DNA of 64,000 nucleotides from Actinocrinis sp. (GCF_035650855.1 NZ_DASRGV010000061.1:299-64298), one strand, 5' to 3'; shown: positions 40,777 through 64,000, counted from the stretch's first letter. Notes: generated by a model not told the origin, from the sequence alone. Numbers and translations: made by a program.

Positions 40777-40819
40777 CCGAGACGCTGTCGAGGCGTCATC
40801 GAGGAGCTGTCAGCACAGT
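40777..40819 (+). promoter_or_regulatory. SARP-type promoter of the C-domain gene
   Basis: CCGAGAC (40777), TCGAGGC (40788), TCGAGGA (40799) in 11-bp phase; 8 bp; -10 CACAGT (40814-40819); the ATG at 40826 sits at the predicted +1. Confidence 0.75.
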
Positions 40820-40825
40820 GGTCGG

Positions 40826-42070
40826 ATGGGTAGTGCTTGGCCGCCGGTCCAAACGGTGCTCGAGATCAGCGGATTCGCGGACGTCGCAGCGTTGCAGCGG
40901 GCCGTTGACACCGTGTTCCGGGCGCACCCCCACCTCCTGCGCGGATTCGGCCGTACCGCGCACGGCAGCCTGATATCCGTCGAGCGACGTGACGCGGTAC
41001 CGCGGCTGCGCGCGGTGGACTTGCGCGAATACCCGGCGGGGCATCGGGAAGCCGCGGCATCGCGGCTCGAGGAGCACGAACGCTGCGAAGAGTTCGCCCT
41101 CGGCGCGCCGCCGCTTGTCAGGCTCCTGTTGATTCGCACCGGCGATCGGGAGCGGCGCTTGGCCGTGACGAGTCATCGCCTGCTCCTTGACGACTGGTCT
41201 CACGCGGCCTTGATTCGCGCCGTGCTCGCCGCGTTCCGCGCGGGCTGGGGCAATGAGGGCACGGATCGCGGCACCGCTCGGCAGTGCACGCTCGACGGCC
41301 GGACCGCCGAGCCCGCCAGGACCACGCTCCGCGCCGCGGATCAGCGCCTGGAAACGGACGCGCACCGCGGTTTCGATCTCGCTGCCCCGTGCGGCACCGA
41401 GGACCCGGTTCGGTTGACCCGCGAACTGCCGCGCGAGCTGACAAGGCGTATTGAGCTGCGTGCGGCCGAGTTGGGGGTCGCCGCGGAAAGCGTCGTGCAC
41501 GCCGCGTGGGCGTTCGCGTTGAGCCGATTGACGGGACGCCGGGACGTCGTCTTCGGGGCGACGGTGACCGTGCCGCGAACCGGTTCGTCGCACGATCCCA
41601 CGGCGCTCGATGTGACGCGCGCGATCCTGCCCGCGACGGTTCGCGTGGAAGCCGAGGGATCGCCCGGCGACCTGCTGCGCGCCGCATCACGGCACACCAT
41701 CGACAGCGCTCCACGCCGGCGCGGCGACCGGACCGATCCGTGCTGGGACGCCGAACGGCGCGCATCTGACACTGTCGCGGTACTCGAACCCGAGCCGATC
41801 GGACCGGTCATGCCACGGCTCGGTATCCGCATCAGTACGTTGAGTATGTTTGATGCGAAGCCCTTCCCGTTGAGCTTCTCGATCGTGCCCGGTCCGTCGT
41901 GGATCGCGCGAGTGGACTTCCAGCCCGCCGCGCTGCCGGCGCGCGTCGCGCGATCCGGACTCGGCCACGCGGTGGCATTCCTGGAAGCGGCCGCCTATGC
42001 GCCTGATTGCCGGTTGGACCGGATCGACGACCGTCGAGCCGTCGGGGTCCGATCGGCGCGCGCCGCGTAG
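40826..42070 (+). CDS. Stand-alone NRPS condensation-like domain with a degenerate active site
   Basis: DVAALQRAV..VFRAHPHL, FALGAPPLVRLLL, SHRLLLDDWS (canonical HHxxxDGWS), AAWAFALSRLTGRRDVVFGATV; atypical codon usage. Confidence 0.75.
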   Translation: MGSAWPPVQTVLEISGFADVAALQRAVDTVFRAHPHLLRGFGRTAHGSLISVERRDAVPRLRAVDLREYPAGHREAAASRLEEHERCEEFALGAPPLVRLLLIRTGDRERRLAVTSHRLLLDDWSHAALIRAVLAAFRAGWGNEGTDRGTARQCTLDGRTAEPARTTLRAADQRLETDAHRGFDLAAPCGTEDPVRLTRELPRELTRRIELRAAELGVAAESVVHAAWAFALSRLTGRRDVVFGATVTVPRTGSSHDPTALDVTRAILPATVRVEAEGSPGDLLRAASRHTIDSAPRRRGDRTDPCWDAERRASDTVAVLEPEPIGPVMPRLGIRISTLSMFDAKPFPLSFSIVPGPSWIARVDFQPAALPARVARSGLGHAVAFLEAAAYAPDCRLDRIDDRRAVGVRSARAA

Positions 42071-61215: not shown

Positions 61216-63492
61216 CTAGACGAACAGCGGAATCGGATTGAGTCGCTCATAAGGCGTCGGTTCGGCCAGCCGGTGCAGCGCGACCGGCACGTCGTACAGG
61301 CGCCCCGGGGCAAGCCGCGCCCAGAAGTGCCGCAGGCCGGGCACGATCACCTTCACCACCGGGATGCCGAGGTCGGGTCGGGTCTGGTCCAGCACCAGCA
61401 GTTCGAGCCCCCGCGAGCGGGTCAGCGCCGTGATCGCCTCGATGTCGTCGAGCAGATCCGCGGCGGGGGTGTACCGGTAGTCCTGCGCCCCGACCGCCTT
61501 GCCGCCCGCGGCCGGCAACAGATATTCAGGGCACCGTCTCGCGCAATGGGCCCACCACGCGTCGAGATCCGGGTCTCCGGCGCTGTCGCGGCACACGACC
61601 GCGCCGAACAGCTGGCCCATCTCGGTCAACGCCCGGCGCAGCGCGATCCGCGGGTCGAAGTGCGCGCCGAAGCCGAAGACGATCCGTCCGCCCTCGGCGC
61701 CCGCCTGCCGCGAGAGCGCGGCGAACACCGGGATGCCGAGATCGGAGGTCAGATCCAGCGCCCACACCTCGCGGCCGAGCCGTCGGTAGTGCGCGCGCAG
61801 GGCCTCGATCCACGGCTCGTCGAAGGAGTCGAGGTCGAGCGCCGGGTGCGTCGTGCGGTTGTACCACCACAGCGCGACCGCGTCCCGCTCCACCAGCTCC
61901 AGGAAACCCTGCACGATCGCGTCCTCGAGGCAGCTTCCGGCCGCGTTCCCGTTGGAGTTCGCGGACAACTGCCCGGACCACTGCGGGCCGCGGCCGAAGT
62001 AGAGCAGTTCGGTCGGCAGCAGCCGCTGGGTCTGCCCGGTCAGCGACCAGACCGGGGTCCACTCGTGCACGGCTTTCTCGTCGAAGGGTTCGCACACGTG
62101 CTGGAGCGCCGAGTGCGTCTTGTTCCAGCGCCGGCGGTCACACAGTTGGCGCTCATGGAAGAGCTGGCAGCGATCGGGATGGACGGCCAGTTCGCCGAGC
62201 GAGCGGTAGCTGGCCCGCACGGTCAGCTCGTCGCCCTGCCGGACGGCGCTGTAGCGCTCGGCGGCCTCGCACAGCGCGCCGACCCGGGCCTCCAGCGCGG
62301 TGACCCCTTTGCCGCTGCTCTGCGCGCGGACCCCGGAACGCAGCCCGGCGAGCGAACGCGTTCGCACGGCCAGATTCGGGCCGGAGACGTAGCAGTTGAG
62401 GAAGTCAGGCACCCCCGCGGCGGGTTCGAGCGCCTTCGTGATCCCGGTGACCGGGCCGACCAGGTGCTGGTAGCGGGCCAGCATCGCCTCGGCGGACAGG
62501 GCTCGGTGACCGCCGCCGGTATCCGCGGCCTTCGGCTGCGAGCGCGGGGTGATCGGCCTGCGCGCGAGCCGTGCCATCATCGCGGGGTCGCCGCACTCCG
62601 GGCACTGCGGCCGGCGCGCGACCGTGTGCCGGGTGCCGTGCAGCGTCATCGTGTCCAGCGTGTAGACGGAATTCTGCTCCGCCTGCCGTACCCCGGCCAG
62701 CCACTTGGCGGCTTCCAGCACCGCGAACTGGATCGCGACGGACCGGGCGGCGGCTATGGACGCCTCCGGGTAGCGCACCCGTGATCCAGCCGCCTCCGCA
62801 CGGCTGATCCACGGTTCGCAGCGGCGATGGTCGCCGAGCCGCTTGGCCAGGCAGGACCAGCACGGCCCCGCGCCGGGCTGGAACAGCGGCCCGATCCAGG
62901 GCTGCGGTCCGCACGGCTTGGCCAGCAGCCACGCCTGGCCGCTCGCGCGCTGCGCCGCGTCGATCGCGGCCAGCTCGGGAGCCAGATAGTCATCGCAGAA
63001 CACGAGCGTGAACGCGCCCGCCGGACACGCCTCGCCCTCGAGGGTGCTCAGCGCGGAGGCCCGGCACGCCTCGCGAGCGGCGGCGTGGTCCACCTCGCCG
63101 ATCGAAATCAGGCGCACCGGCGTCCTGCCGAGCGCCTCCGCGGCCAGCGGGCCGTCGAGGCCGGCCAGATCCCAGTAGGCCTCGGCCGCGGCGTCGCGCG
63201 GCGGACCTGTTCGCGTGCTGTCTCGGAATGCCAGCAGATCGGCGTCGAAGAGCTGGCCGATCAGGCGGCCGACTTGGGCTGCGGTCATCGCGGGGGTGGC
63301 GTCGCGCACGACGCCGGCCAGCGTGCGGCTGCCGTCGAGCAGCGGCGCCAGCACCTCGATGAAATCTCCCTCCAGAGCAGTCACCCCGAGCGGAGACAGC
63401 AGATATGCCGCCTCGCCCGGGATGACCGCGCTGCGCAGATGCCGCTTGAACCCGACCAGCCGGCCCGTGTCCGGACCGTCTGCGGTGATCAC
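61216..63492 (-). CDS. Fused TOMM cyclodehydratase (leader-binding and E1-like domains plus YcaO)
   Basis: WIGPLF.PG.GPCW.CL and RRPQCPECG (E1-like); SSGKG, ALCEAAERYS, NSNGNAAG, FLELVERDAVALWW and VKVIVPGL; C-terminal NPIPLFV Pro motif; GTG overlaps the precursor stop. Confidence 0.95.
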   Translation of the reverse strand: MITADGPDTGRLVGFKRHLRSAVIPGEAAYLLSPLGVTALEGDFIEVLAPLLDGSRTLAGVVRDATPAMTAAQVGRLIGQLFDADLLAFRDSTRTGPPRDAAAEAYWDLAGLDGPLAAEALGRTPVRLISIGEVDHAAAREACRASALSTLEGEACPAGAFTLVFCDDYLAPELAAIDAAQRASGQAWLLAKPCGPQPWIGPLFQPGAGPCWSCLAKRLGDHRRCEPWISRAEAAGSRVRYPEASIAAARSVAIQFAVLEAAKWLAGVRQAEQNSVYTLDTMTLHGTRHTVARRPQCPECGDPAMMARLARRPITPRSQPKAADTGGGHRALSAEAMLARYQHLVGPVTGITKALEPAAGVPDFLNCYVSGPNLAVRTRSLAGLRSGVRAQSSGKGVTALEARVGALCEAAERYSAVRQGDELTVRASYRSLGELAVHPDRCQLFHERQLCDRRRWNKTHSALQHVCEPFDEKAVHEWTPVWSLTGQTQRLLPTELLYFGRGPQWSGQLSANSNGNAAGSCLEDAIVQGFLELVERDAVALWWYNRTTHPALDLDSFDEPWIEALRAHYRRLGREVWALDLTSDLGIPVFAALSRQAGAEGGRIVFGFGAHFDPRIALRRALTEMGQLFGAVVCRDSAGDPDLDAWWAHCARRCPEYLLPAAGGKAVGAQDYRYTPAADLLDDIEAITALTRSRGLELLVLDQTRPDLGIPVVKVIVPGLRHFWARLAPGRLYDVPVALHRLAEPTPYERLNPIPLFV

Positions 63493-63812
63493 GCCGAGTT
63501 CCTCCTGACCGGAACCGGGTCGCCCTGCGGCTCGGGCTCGTCGTCGCCCGGCTCGGTGCCGCAGAAGTTCACCGTCTGGGTCAGCCGGTGGCCGCGGGCG
63601 TGCTCCAGATCCTCGATGATCAGATCGGCGCCGCAGTACGGCTCCAGGGCCGGCGCCTCCTCGCGGCGGGCGACCTTGAGCCCGAACTCGGCCAGTACGG
63701 CGCACGGATCCGCGGCGTACCGCACGACCAGCTCCGGCTCCATCCAGCTACGAGCGACGAGTTCGGCGAAGCGCCAGTCGCGTTCGACCGGCGTGTTGCT
63801 GACGTTCGACAT
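63489..63812 (-). CDS. NHLP-like (nitrile-hydratase-leader-type) TOMM precursor peptide, 107 aa
   Basis: RBS GGAGG; FAELVARSWMEPEL..RYAADP.AVLAEFGL leader pattern, DLIIEDLEHARG, then a putative core HRLTQTVNFCGTEPGDDEPEPQGDPVPVRRNSA; translationally coupled to YcaO. Confidence 0.88.
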   Translation of the reverse strand: MSNVSNTPVERDWRFAELVARSWMEPELVVRYAADPCAVLAEFGLKVARREEAPALEPYCGADLIIEDLEHARGHRLTQTVNFCGTEPGDDEPEPQGDPVPVRRNSA

Positions 63813-64000
63813 GACGGATCTCCCCTCCGGATCTTCGTCAGCCGTTCGCGCTGACACCATCGATAGTGCGCGCCGGTGTTCGGCGCCGAACAGTGTCGGG
63901 CTCACCCGCGGGGCGTGAGTTCTTCACATCCGCACTCATGAGCCCGTCACTGGCTGCTGGATCGGCCGTGGTGCCATTCTCGACGGGCGGTCGTCGTCAC

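What the first reader, a model, noticed from the sequence alone, without database searches (positions are those of the whole stretch)
40777..64000. Hybrid azole-RiPP / fatty-acyl biosynthetic cluster: candidate new lipidated ribosomal peptide system
Seen: within about 23 kb, an NHLP-like precursor coupled to a fused YcaO cyclodehydratase and SagB dehydrogenase; FAAL-ACP-(AT-ACP)-PPTase; a Ser-type KSIII-like enzyme with P450/Fd/FdR/Fd; a flavin monooxygenase; CimA with a methylacyl-CoA racemase; OYE, SRPBCC and a stand-alone C domain. These operons share one promoter signature. Known: YcaO with SagB makes thiazoles/oxazoles; FAALs load fatty acids on ACPs; KSIII-like and C-domain enzymes can transfer acyl groups to amines or hydroxyls; fatty-acylated RiPPs exist (lipolanthines, lipoavitides, selidamides) but use lanthipeptide or other cores. 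Inference: the product is an azole-containing peptide carrying an oxidised, probably methyl-branched acyl chain. I do not recognise a characterised compound with this gene set. The cluster probably continues past the right edge.
Basis: partly seen in the sequence, partly recalled or inferred. Interest (0 to 1): 0.92.

Follow-up and report, generated by a model that had tools for sequence, protein, structure and literature searches.

The report
Peptide-signal cassette inside trioxacarcin-like cluster
The genes are real, but most 'fatty-acyl' genes belong to a trioxacarcin-type aromatic polyketide cluster that runs past the window edge, and the thiazole-peptide genes form a widespread sensor-linked cassette that may switch such clusters on.

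Summary

The contig runs 17.9 kb past the window. It carries a SARP regulator, a type II minimal polyketide synthase (PKS), cyclases, a ketoreductase and an AlkZ-like DNA glycosylase.

Nine window genes plus the PKS core have counterparts, mostly in conserved order, in a Streptomyces genome matching the published trioxacarcin (txn) cluster. They are the KSIII, CimA-like, CoA-transferase, FAAL, Fd, FdR, flavin monooxygenase and SRPBCC genes and the response regulator. So this is one trioxacarcin-family cluster of at least 41 kb. Only FAAL matches a fatty-acid enzyme family, and its substrate is unknown.

Precursor, YcaO (with or without SagB), membrane histidine kinase and LuxR-type regulator form a modular cassette.
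- YcaO homologues occur in 106 of 401 Streptomyces species.
- The cassette often lies beside a SARP gene and inside aromatic-polyketide clusters. It also occurs without a nearby PKS.
- It has a conserved 62-bp triple-palindrome operator. The txn cluster keeps this operator although it lacks the peptide genes.

My inference is a ComQXPA-like peptide autoinducer that drives the SARP.

The AT-ACP gene of the FAAL/ACP/AT-ACP/PPTase module lies beside this cassette in 23 of 25 genomes, so a lipidated peptide is not excluded.

I found no description of this cassette in the paper library.

The parts
40777..40803 (+). SARP-box-like TCGAG heptad repeats (three heptads, 11-nt period) upstream of the C-domain gene; left boundary of the cluster
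40826..42070 (+). Stand-alone condensation-like domain with a degenerate catalytic motif (HRLLLDD)
   Evidence: Pfam PF00668 54.6 bits. Motif read. Not found in the stretches fetched from related loci.
42293..43429 (-). Old-yellow-enzyme flavin oxidoreductase
   Evidence: PF00724 222 bits
43429..43959 (-). SRPBCC/AHSA1 protein, counterpart of TxnO9 (CalC-like)
   Evidence: 54% identity to the G306 txn-cluster gene
44187..45332 (+). DpsC-type (Ser active site) KSIII starter-unit acyltransferase, counterpart of TxnA5
   Evidence: PDB 4xs7 E 2.5e-103; 69% identity to the G306 gene
45329..46537 (+). Cytochrome P450
46679..46999 (+). 2Fe-2S ferredoxin, counterpart of TxnO4
47003..48199 (+). Ferredoxin reductase, counterpart of TxnO3
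   Evidence: 52%
48228..48563 (+). Second 2Fe-2S ferredoxin
48679..49863 (-). ACAD-fold two-component flavin monooxygenase (HsaA/AlnT-like), counterpart of TxnO8
   Evidence: 49%
50042..51706 (-). Citramalate/isopropylmalate-synthase-like enzyme, counterpart of TxnP2
   Evidence: TIGR00977 543 bits; 57% to G306
51721..52773 (-). Family III CoA-transferase, counterpart of TxnP3
   Evidence: PF02515 264 bits; 67% to G306
52796..53034 (.). Divergent promoter region with TCGAG heptad repeats facing both the CoA-transferase/CimA operon and the FAAL operon
   Evidence: Conserved upstream of FAAL in G001, G002 and G006.
53143..54933 (+). Fatty acyl-AMP ligase, counterpart of TxnP1
   Evidence: 48% to G306
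54930..55277 (+). Stand-alone acyl carrier protein (DSL motif)
   Evidence: translation; conserved in relatives
55274..56515 (+). Acyltransferase-ACP didomain protein
   Evidence: In Streptomyces it lies 12 kb or less from the YcaO in 23 of 25 genomes.
56602..57360 (+). 4'-phosphopantetheinyl transferase
57371..58111 (-). NarL/LuxR-type response regulator, counterpart of TxnRg4
   Evidence: 73% to G306; 57-78% identity in 52 of 60 sampled YcaO loci
58114..59427 (-). HisKA_3 histidine kinase with 4-5 hydrophobic segments predicted as membrane helices in its first 190 residues, counterpart of TxnRg3
   Evidence: next to the YcaO in 55 of 60 sampled loci
59589..61313 (-). SagB/ThcOx-type FMN azoline dehydrogenase
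61216..63492 (-). Fused leader-binding (E1-like) + YcaO cyclodehydratase with a proline-rich C terminus (LNPIPLFV)
63489..63812 (-). NHLP-like precursor: leader, LIIEDLE box, then a core with Cys at +14 (TVNFCG) and an acidic, proline-rich tail
63891..63952 (-). Conserved operator CAGTG-N52-CACTG, made of three GTGA-N5-TCAY palindromes 22-23 bp apart. It lies upstream of a -10-like CACTAT (63868-63863), between the precursor operon and the divergent SARP gene.

Best explanation
Window 40.8-64 kb is the left half of one SARP-controlled cluster of at least 41 kb for a trioxacarcin-family aromatic polyketide.

Polyketide part. A DpsC-type KSIII primes the type II PKS. The CimA-like enzyme and the CoA-transferase are the counterparts of TxnP2 and TxnP3; their role is unassigned and starter supply is my guess. 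The KS-alpha/CLF/ACP genes lie just past the window edge. P450/Fd/FdR, the flavin monooxygenase, OYE and SRPBCC tailor the scaffold. An AlkZ-like glycosylase may protect the producer's DNA.

Regulatory hub. A five-gene cassette sits here: NHLP-type precursor, fused YcaO cyclodehydratase, SagB dehydrogenase, multi-pass HisKA_3 kinase and LuxR-type regulator.

Inferred steps:
1. YcaO and SagB turn the core Cys (VNFCG) into a thiazole.
2. The small processed peptide is sensed by the kinase.
3. The phosphorylated regulator binds the triple-palindrome operator.
4. That activates its own operon and the divergent SARP gene.
5. The SARP switches on the biosynthetic operons through TCGAG heptad boxes.

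This would be a ComQXPA-like autoinduction loop.

Status of the claims. Shown: the gene identities, synteny with txn, the modular distribution of the cassette, the operator and the boxes. Inferred: the peptide's structure, its sensing by the kinase and the direction of control.

The destination of the FAAL/ACP/AT-ACP/PPTase module is unresolved. An extra acyl primer for the PKS is somewhat more likely than lipidation of the peptide.
For: Cluster extent and identity:
- The contig extends 17.9 kb and carries SARP, carboxyltransferase, KS-alpha, CLF, ACP, SnoaL, cyclase, AT, KR, ARO/CYC and an AlkZ-like gene.
- Gene order and protein lengths of G306 match Table 1 of the trioxacarcin paper for more than 25 genes.
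- Window proteins match the G306 proteins at: KS-alpha 80%, KSIII 69%, CoA-transferase 67%, SARP 67%, RR 73%, KR 65%, CimA-like 57%, ARO 57%, SRPBCC 54%, FdR 52%, AlkZ 50%, FAAL 48%.
- The full arrangement is conserved in Actinocrinis and in 14 Streptomyces species, for example NBC_00114.

Cassette distribution:
- YcaO homologues occur in 106 of 401 Streptomyces genomes.
- In 60 sampled loci: YcaO 59, kinase 55, regulator 52, SARP 36. No protease or transporter family is conserved.
- At least 25 of the 106 lie within 25 kb of a type II KS-alpha, and these belong to several KS-alpha clades. Chance would give about 0.4% by my estimate.
- Other neighbours are deoxysugar and glycosyltransferase genes.

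Operator:
- The 57-nt spacing is identical in 31 loci. It occurs once per locus and once in the whole G000 assembly.
- It is also present between txnRg2 and txnRg3 in the peptide-less txn cluster.

Other support:
- The kinase has 4-5 predicted membrane helices.
- Cores are short and hypervariable with a [C/T/S]-x-C motif at a fixed distance from the box. Some precursors carry 2-4 tandem core copies.
- Kinase sensor-domain similarity tracks core similarity after controlling for kinase core and regulator (partial r 0.30, permutation p 0.001).
- TCGAG boxes lie in five cluster promoters.
Against: - No export or leader-protease gene travels with the cassette, so release of an extracellular signal is unexplained.
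- Multi-pass HisKA_3 kinases also sense envelope stress or antibiotics. The two-component system could therefore respond to the polyketide or serve immunity.
- The partial Mantel result is confounded by shared ancestry. The control correlation was also positive (0.17).
- Which protein binds the operator is unknown.
- Nonomuraea-type loci have the cassette without a SARP, and the operator was not detected there.
- The AT-ACP module occurs almost only beside the cassette (23 of 25), and the txn-type priming genes are already present. Both facts fit peptide lipidation better than a second polyketide primer.
- The window cluster lacks the sugar, methyltransferase and epoxide-hydrolase genes of txn in the part that could be seen. 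The product is therefore not trioxacarcin itself.
Confidence: 0.5

Rival explanations
1. The FAAL/ACP/AT-ACP/PPTase module (with ACAD2) builds an acyl chain that is transferred to the thiazole peptide. The result is a lipidated RiPP, possibly itself the signal, made side by side with the polyketide.
For: - AT-ACP homologues (E <= 1e-95) occur in 25 of 401 Streptomyces genomes. In 23 of them the gene lies 12 kb or less from the YcaO.
- The module abuts the regulator end of the cassette in two different PKS families, although its internal gene order differs.
- A related FAAL-ACAD-ACAD-ACP-KS/AT/ACP-PPTase module lies 10-25 kb from the cassette in G010, G286 and G216.
- The txn-type priming genes are already present, so the module is surplus to them.
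- TxnP1 is absent from other trioxacarcin producers (PMC13511009).
- FAAL + ACP + acyl-ACP dehydrogenase is the usual lipid-tail set of lipopeptides (my own knowledge).
Against: - No acyltransferase able to couple acyl-ACP to a peptide is conserved with the cassette. No GNAT-family hit was returned for the 24 called genes between 38.3 kb and the window edge that were scanned with Pfam.
- The C domain has HRLLLDD and is not found in the fetched stretches of any relative.
- A FAAL was seen near only 14 of 60 sampled Streptomyces cassettes.
- Wherever the AT-ACP form of the module could be traced, a type II minimal PKS is also present. An AT-ACP needs a ketosynthase partner.
- The 23 of 25 figure reflects only 2-4 independent cluster lineages.
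Confidence: 0.27
2. The TOMM genes with their two-component system are an ordinary self-contained linear azole peptide (LAP) antibiotic cluster that happens to be nested in polyketide clusters. The kinase and regulator give product autoinduction or immunity, with no control over the polyketide.
For: - The cassette occurs without any PKS within 10 kb in Nonomuraea, Streptosporangium, Krasilnikovia and Thermocatellispora and in many Streptomyces loci.
- RiPP clusters often carry their own two-component systems (my own knowledge).
- Hypervariable cores fit an arms-race antibiotic.
Against: - There is a strong excess of type II PKS and deoxysugar neighbours.
- The cassette sits exactly between the cluster's SARP gene and the kinase/regulator pair, which the peptide-less txn cluster also has, with the same operator.
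- A SARP gene lies divergent from the precursor in 51 of the 92 loci examined.
- No immunity, transporter or protease genes are conserved.
- Cores carry only 1-2 residues that can be cyclised.
Confidence: 0.15
3. A covalent polyketide-peptide hybrid. The aromatic polyketide, or its acyl primer, is joined to the thiazole peptide, with the peptide acting as scaffold or carrier.
For: TOMM and type II PKS genes are found together repeatedly in several PKS families. A stand-alone C-like domain is under a SARP box in this genome.
Against: - Cores are hypervariable while the PKS enzymes are conserved (KS-alpha about 80%).
- No conserved coupling enzyme was found.
- The txn cluster makes its product without the peptide genes.
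- The C domain is degenerate and seen only in this genome.
Confidence: 0.05

Closest known systems
Trioxacarcin (txn) cluster of Streptomyces bottropensis (KP410250; PMC5659172) and the related LL-D49194 cluster
   Same: Shared genes: MAT-ACP-CLF-KS-alpha, SARP, kinase-regulator, FAAL (TxnP1), ARO, DpsC-type KSIII (TxnA5), isopropylmalate-synthase-like (TxnP2), CoA-transferase (TxnP3), P450, Fd/FdR, AlnT-like monooxygenase, CalC-like SRPBCC, C-9 ketoreductase and an AlkZ-like glycosylase. Identities run from 48 to 80%. The txn cluster has the same operator upstream of its kinase-regulator pair.
   Different: In the 41 kb seen here there are no deoxysugar, glycosyltransferase, O-methyltransferase or epoxide-hydrolase genes. 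Extra genes here are precursor/YcaO/SagB, ACP/AT-ACP/PPTase/ACAD2, carboxyltransferase, alpha/beta-hydrolase, PF04199 cyclase, OYE, the C-like domain, a nitroreductase and a class V aminotransferase. The product is a relative and not trioxacarcin.
NHLP-type TOMM / linear azole peptide systems with a fused cyanobactin-like cyclodehydratase (TIGR04351, TIGR03604, TIGR03882, TIGR03605)
   Same: NHLP-like leader, hypervariable core, fused leader-binding + YcaO enzyme with a proline-rich C terminus, and a SagB/ThcOx FMN dehydrogenase.
   Different: The core has only one or two residues that can be cyclised. No protease or transporter is present. The genes are always coupled to a HisKA_3 kinase and a LuxR-type regulator, usually with a SARP gene, and are embedded in polyketide clusters.
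ComQXPA quorum-sensing operon of Bacillus (works like it; not a member)
   Same: One operon encodes a modified-peptide precursor, its modifying enzyme, a multi-pass HisKA_3 kinase and a NarL/LuxR-type regulator. Peptide and sensor domain are variable while the regulator is conserved.
   Different: The modification is azole formation by a YcaO, not prenylation by ComQ. No sequence relationship was tested. Signalling has not been shown.
Lipidated RiPPs (lipolanthines, goadvionins, selidamides, lipoavitides)
   Same: A RiPP precursor and fatty-acyl or PKS genes lie in one locus.
   Different: Those systems use a dedicated acyltransferase (GNAT-type in goadvionins and selidamides, from my own knowledge) and lanthipeptide or other cores. 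No such transferase was found here, and most acyl genes here belong to a type II PKS pathway.
Goadsporin (a Streptomyces azole peptide that induces secondary metabolism in other streptomycetes; mentioned in PMC4603692)
   Same: An azole-containing ribosomal peptide from an actinomycete with signal-like effects on antibiotic production.
   Different: Goadsporin is a long, heavily modified LAP with its own immunity gene. It is not linked to a two-component system or a SARP gene as far as I know.

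Membership tests
Trioxacarcin-family type II PKS cluster | Minimal PKS (KS-alpha/CLF/ACP) closely related to TxnA1-A3 | tested here: met
   L001 5338-8155. KS-alpha 80%, CLF 66%, ACP 60% to the txn-type cluster of G306.
Trioxacarcin-family type II PKS cluster | DpsC-type KSIII plus TxnP2 (IPMS-like) and TxnP3 (CoA-transferase) counterparts | tested here: met
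   69%, 57% and 67% identity. In NBC_00114 and G306 KSIII lies next to the CimA-like gene, with CoA-transferase beside it (G306) or one MFS gene away (NBC_00114). In the window only the CimA-like and CoA-transferase genes are adjacent; KSIII lies about 4.7 kb away..
Trioxacarcin-family type II PKS cluster | AlkZ-like DNA glycosylase as self-resistance gene | tested here: met
   L001 17414-18550, PF06224 306 bits. 50% to the G306 TxnU2-like gene. It lies at the contig end, so cluster membership is probable and unproven.
Trioxacarcin-family type II PKS cluster | Deoxysugar, glycosyltransferase, O-methyltransferase and epoxide-hydrolase tailoring genes of trioxacarcin itself | tested here: not met
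   None was found among the called genes between window 40.8 kb and the contig end that were scanned. The contig ends at 82.2 kb, so more genes may follow.
TOMM / linear azole peptide RiPP | YcaO cyclodehydratase with a leader-binding partner domain | tested here: met
   TIGR03604 257 bits (cut-off 219) and TIGR03882 148 bits (cut-off 37). The proline-rich C terminus is conserved.
TOMM / linear azole peptide RiPP | Precursor with a leader and a Cys/Ser/Thr-bearing core | tested here: met
   TIGR04351 hit, E 1e-15 but below its cut-off. Across about 70 loci a conserved LVIEDLD-type box is followed by a core whose Cys lies about 10-14 residues after the box.
TOMM / linear azole peptide RiPP | FMN-dependent azoline dehydrogenase | tested here: met
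   TIGR03605 163 bits (cut-off 78). No homologue was found in the stretches fetched from the 14 group A Streptomyces loci.
TOMM / linear azole peptide RiPP | Leader peptidase and exporter | tested here: not met
   No protease or transporter family is conserved among 60 loci. None lies in the window cluster.
Lipidated RiPP | Dedicated enzyme that transfers the acyl chain to the peptide | tested here: not met
   No GNAT-family hit in the Pfam scans. The C-like domain has HRLLLDD and is not conserved.
Lipidated RiPP | Acyl-chain genes co-inherited with the RiPP genes | tested here: inconclusive
   AT-ACP lies beside the YcaO in 23 of 25 genomes. But a FAAL was seen near only 14 of 60 sampled cassettes, and a type II PKS was present wherever the AT-ACP module could be traced.
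ComQXPA-like peptide quorum sensing (functional analogy) | Precursor, modifying enzyme, multi-pass HisKA_3 kinase and LuxR-type regulator in one unit with an autoregulatory operator | tested here: met
   Gene order and domains. The operator lies upstream of the operon in most Streptomyces and Actinocrinis loci.
ComQXPA-like peptide quorum sensing (functional analogy) | The mature peptide is exported and sensed by the kinase | not testable with these tools
   Only indirect support: sensor and core co-vary with partial r 0.30.

The most novel reading that the evidence does not exclude
Precursor, YcaO (with or without SagB), kinase and regulator, usually with a SARP gene, form a previously undescribed class of cluster-situated peptide-pheromone switch in actinomycetes. 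A small thiazol(in)e peptide, fatty-acylated in about a fifth of cases, is sensed by its cognate multi-pass kinase. The regulator binds a conserved triple-palindrome operator, amplifies its own operon and turns on the SARP, which activates aromatic-polyketide clusters, including those for genotoxins. The trioxacarcin cluster would then hold a 'solo receptor' version that has lost the peptide genes.
Probability: 0.35. Interest if true: 0.85.

Novelty: new variant of a known kind. Interest (0 to 1): 0.66.

Why it matters
The polyketide half is a new relative of the trioxacarcin DNA-alkylating antitumour antibiotics. It comes from Actinocrinis, a genus I am not aware of having been explored for natural products, and it has a different tailoring set.

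The more general point concerns the thiazole-peptide and two-component cassette.
- Its YcaO has homologues in about a quarter of sampled Streptomyces species.
- It is strongly enriched inside aromatic-polyketide clusters.
- It carries a conserved operator.

If it is a peptide autoinducer acting through a SARP, it would be a ribosomal-peptide counterpart of the gamma-butyrolactone systems. It would also give a simple handle for waking silent clusters: supply the peptide, or over-express the regulator. And it would explain the unassigned TxnRg3/Rg4 and TxnP1 genes of the trioxacarcin cluster.

Tried and rejected
- A separate fatty-acyl lipid-tail pathway. Rejected for KSIII, CimA-like, CoA-transferase, Fd/FdR, flavin monooxygenase and SRPBCC, because they have trioxacarcin-cluster counterparts.
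- A highly reducing type II PKS or polyene. Rejected because ARO/CYC, KR and SnoaL genes and KS-alpha identity point to an aromatic polyketide.
- An AfsA/butyrolactone link. An AfsA gene follows a second FAAL module in G010. AfsA is not near the cassette in G000, G001, G041 or G286, so this is not general.
- Whole-window enrichment of TCGAG-N6-TCGAG with one mismatch. Not above shuffles. Only the exact copies and their promoter positions carry weight.
- Literature. Nine searches and seven papers read found no description of a YcaO/kinase/regulator/SARP cassette, nor of TOMM genes in type II PKS clusters.
- A sequence look-up in earlier scan findings gave nothing.
- I did not run antiSMASH, MIBiG or BiG-SCAPE, because they are not available here.
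- I did not fold any protein.
- I did not build reconciled YcaO and KS-alpha trees.
- The list of KS-alpha hits was truncated. The count of PKS-linked cassettes (at least 25 of 106) is therefore a floor, read by eye from coordinates.

Full report
**Observation.** I called genes by codon bias and scanned them with Pfam and NCBIfam.

The KSIII-like protein is a close homologue of DpsC (PDB 4xs7, E 2.5e-103). It keeps the acylated serine: EIRQMSNGG against EVRQVSNGG. The small ACP overlaps the FAAL stop and carries a DSL motif.

The precursor (MSNVSNTPVERDW...LIIEDLE...TVNFCGTEP...) matches TIGR04351, 'putative TOMM peptide', at E 1e-15. That score is below the curated cut-off. TOMM stands for thiazole/oxazole-modified peptide.

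They lie between the PPTase and SagB genes.

**What lies beyond the edge.** The window is G000:C61:299-64298 and the contig is 82,224 b long. The next 17.9 kb (L001) carry these genes, in order:
- SARP regulator
- acyl-CoA carboxyltransferase
- alpha/beta-hydrolase
- KS-alpha, CLF and ACP
- SnoaL-like protein
- PF04199 cyclase
- malonyl transferase
- ketoreductase
- didomain ARO/CYC
- nitroreductase
- a long ACAD-like protein
- class V aminotransferase
- AlkZ-like DNA glycosylase

The region is therefore part of a type II polyketide cluster. Genes to the left of 40.8 kb are glycoside hydrolases and lectin-like proteins.

**Identity of the polyketide part.** The published trioxacarcin cluster has this order (PMC5659172, Table 1): MAT, ACP, CLF, KS-alpha, SARP, kinase, regulator, TxnP1 (579-aa ligase), aromatase, KSIII, TxnP2 (isopropylmalate-synthase-like), TxnP3 (CoA-transferase), then a dehydrogenase, P450s, TxnU2, Fd reductase, Fd, a hydrolase and an epoxide hydrolase.

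An unnamed Streptomyces genome (G306) reproduces that order and more than 25 of the protein lengths. It is the txn cluster or a very close relative.

Against the G306 proteins, the window and L001 proteins score as follows:
- KS-alpha 80%, CLF 66%, SARP 67%
- KSIII 69%, CoA-transferase 67%, CimA-like 57%
- regulator 73%, kinase 49%
- KR 65%, ARO 57%, SRPBCC (TxnO9) 54%
- FdR 52%, AlkZ-like 50%, flavin monooxygenase (TxnO8) 49%, FAAL 48%

Streptomyces sp. NBC_00114 carries nearly the whole gene set of the window cluster plus an epoxide hydrolase and MFS exporters.

The visible 41 kb lack the sugar, methyltransferase and epoxide-hydrolase genes of txn. The product is therefore a relative and not trioxacarcin.

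**Promoter signature.** Exact TCGAG-N6-TCGAG occurs three times in 83 kb:
- upstream of the C-domain gene (40788, with a third heptad at 40777)
- upstream of FAAL (53019)
- upstream of KS-alpha (L001 5061)

One-mismatch copies face the CoA-transferase/CimA operon (52796, minus strand) and the cyclase operon (L001 8771).

By my own base-composition estimate about 0.15 exact copies are expected. Overall counts with one mismatch are not above shuffles, so the argument rests on where the sites lie. The FAAL box is conserved in three Actinocrinis relatives.

These are typical SARP heptad repeats.

**The thiazole-peptide genes are a modular cassette.**

In close relatives:
- Counterparts of the fused YcaO occur in 5 other Actinocrinis genomes with the same flanks.
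- In 14 Streptomyces species they lie inside the trioxacarcin-like cluster, without SagB.
- In Nonomuraea, Streptosporangium, Krasilnikovia and Thermocatellispora they occur with SagB, kinase and regulator, but with no PKS within 10 kb.

In a sample of 401 Streptomyces species:
- 106 have a homologue.
- I sampled 60 of these loci at plus or minus 10 kb. The only families conserved are YcaO (59), kinase (55), regulator (52) and SARP (36).
- A SagB-type protein is present in 28.
- No protease or transporter family is conserved.

Neighbours vary but are mostly aromatic-polyketide genes:
- KS-alpha/CLF
- EryCIII-type glycosyltransferases (16 loci)
- dTDP-sugar enzymes
- ketoreductases, cyclases and P450s

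I crossed coordinates between by eye, and the list was truncated. At least 25 of the 106 YcaO genes lie within 25 kb of a type II KS-alpha. These KS-alphas fall in several clades (83-98% and 72-76% identity). A further family at 68-69% showed up in the fetched loci. Random placement would give about 0.4% by my estimate.

**Precursors.** Across the family a conserved box (LVIEDLD and variants) is followed, about 10 to 14 residues later, by a short motif. Examples are ALFTVC, LCFCL, ICICW and WCMCI, and in the window TVNFCG.

Several precursors carry 2 to 4 tandem core copies. Examples are VTSSCNFTHGPIP four times and FTFCA three times.

The YcaO keeps its proline-rich C terminus. The expected product is a small peptide with one or two thiazoles.

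**A conserved operator.** A 62-bp element lies between the precursor operon and the divergent SARP gene. In the window it is at 63891-63952 on the minus strand.
- Its form is CAGTG-N52-CACTG, made of three GTGA-N5-TCAY palindromes 22 to 23 bp apart.
- About 22 to 30 nt downstream lies a -10-like hexamer: CAGAAT in most Streptomyces loci and CACTAT in the window.
- The 57-nt spacing is identical in 31 loci. Other loci have 79-80 nt, about two helical turns more.
- It occurs once per locus and once in the whole 6.2-Mb assembly.
- Site pairs also precede the precursor in Streptomyces loci without a SARP gene.
- The same element lies between the SARP and kinase genes of the txn-type cluster in G306, which has no precursor or YcaO.

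The operator therefore goes with the kinase-regulator pair. In carriers of the cassette the peptide genes are the first genes of that operon.

**Inference on function.** The kinase has 4 to 5 hydrophobic segments predicted as membrane helices with short loops. Mean pairwise identities are:
- kinase sensor domain 41%, kinase catalytic core 51%
- regulator 68%
- YcaO N-terminal part 49%, YcaO catalytic part 62%

Sensor-domain similarity follows core-peptide similarity after controlling for kinase core and regulator (partial r 0.30, permutation p 0.001). The control was 0.17, and shared ancestry weakens this test.

Four features match the ComQXPA design: precursor, modifying enzyme, multi-pass HisKA_3 kinase and LuxR-type regulator in one operon behind an autoregulatory operator. 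Together with the divergent SARP and the SARP boxes on the biosynthetic operons, this suggests a cascade. The order would be peptide, kinase, regulator, SARP, then the cluster.

None of the signalling steps is shown. The lack of an exporter or protease is a real gap.

1. AT-ACP homologues (E <= 1e-95) occur in only 25 of 401 Streptomyces genomes. In 23 of them the gene lies 12 kb or less from the YcaO (crossed).
2. The trioxacarcin-type priming genes are already present, and TxnP1 is absent from other trioxacarcin producers (PMC13511009). The module is therefore surplus to the scaffold.

Against lipidation:
- Wherever the AT-ACP form of the module could be traced, a type II minimal PKS is also there.
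- An AT-ACP needs a ketosynthase partner.
- A FAAL was seen near only 14 of 60 sampled cassettes.
- No coupling enzyme is conserved.
- The stand-alone C-like domain has HRLLLDD and was not found in the stretches fetched from any relative.

A different FAAL-ACAD-ACAD-ACP-KS/AT/ACP-KSIII-PPTase module lies 10-25 kb from the cassette in G010, G286 and G216. In G010 it is followed by an AfsA-type gene, but AfsA is not generally linked.

**Comparison with the known.**
- The polyketide half is a new member of the trioxacarcin/LL-D49194 family.
- The peptide half meets the enzyme criteria of NHLP-type TOMM systems. It lacks their protease and export genes.
- It does not meet the criterion of a dedicated acyltransferase that defines the lipidated RiPPs.
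- Searches of the paper library found no report of this cassette or of TOMM genes within type II PKS clusters. The library is incomplete, so this is not proof of novelty.

**Verdict.** My probabilities for the readings are:
- 0.5: one trioxacarcin-family cluster whose regulatory hub holds a widespread thiazole-peptide and two-component cassette, most likely an autoinduction switch.
- About 0.27: a lipidated peptide.
- About 0.15: an unrelated nested RiPP cluster.
- About 0.05: a covalent polyketide-peptide hybrid.

Noticed in passing
L136-L139 (G306:C3:1-80000), element at about 54309 (-): An unnamed Streptomyces genome carries what is, by gene order and protein lengths, the published trioxacarcin cluster. 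It has the same 62-bp operator between its SARP and kinase genes, but no precursor or YcaO, and none was found in the genome at E <= 1e-120. It looks like a 'receptor-only' version of the cassette.
   Followed up: partly
L021 (G010:C147) 813-13048: A second lipid module (FAAL, two ACAD-like genes, ACP, a 1009-aa KS-AT-ACP, a KSIII-like gene, PPTase) is followed by an AfsA (A-factor synthase) gene and a second SARP gene. It lies about 6 kb from the cassette. This may be a butyrolactone-type signal pathway with its own dedicated acyl supply.
   Followed up: partly
L036, L044, L049 (about 9.5-10.0 kb); L069, L070: Some Streptomyces precursors carry 2-4 tandem copies of the core, in one case with its recognition box. 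Examples are VTSSCNFTHGPIP four times, VREDLDxVxASVTRGCYSNFTHSP three times, FTNFTHA four times and FTFCA three times. This resembles cyanobactin multi-core precursors.
   Followed up: no
window 40826-42070: The stand-alone condensation-like domain has HRLLLDD instead of HHxxxDG and weak codon bias (GC3 0.80), yet it sits behind the best SARP box of the cluster. It was not found in the stretches fetched from any related locus.
   Followed up: partly
G117:C220, G429:C44, G194:C22, G264:C586: In four Streptomyces genomes the AT-ACP reading frame contains a single in-frame TGA. The AT and ACP parts may be separate genes there, or the stop may be read through.
   Followed up: no
window 19837-39929: Left of the cluster lies a block of predicted secreted carbohydrate-active proteins: GH92 mannosidase, a GH141-like beta-helix protein with fn3 domains, a BNR/sialidase-like protein, an F5/8 type C lectin protein, a GH28-like protein and a papain-like protease. 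It is unrelated to the cluster.
   Followed up: no
L001 12926-17176: Between the ARO/CYC gene and the AlkZ-like gene lie a nitroreductase, a 568-aa ACAD-like protein and a 537-aa class V aminotransferase (cysteine-desulfurase-like). The ACAD-like gene sits next to FAAL in Streptomyces. The txn cluster has none of these, and their role is unknown.
   Followed up: no
L104 (G228) and L027-L028 (G028:C1:4880200-4920199): A more distant YcaO (48%) with SagB, kinase and regulator lies in a different type II PKS cluster. That cluster also holds an AlkZ-like gene (50-51%), an AlnT-like monooxygenase and an MFS exporter. This is a second genotoxin-type context for the cassette.
   Followed up: no
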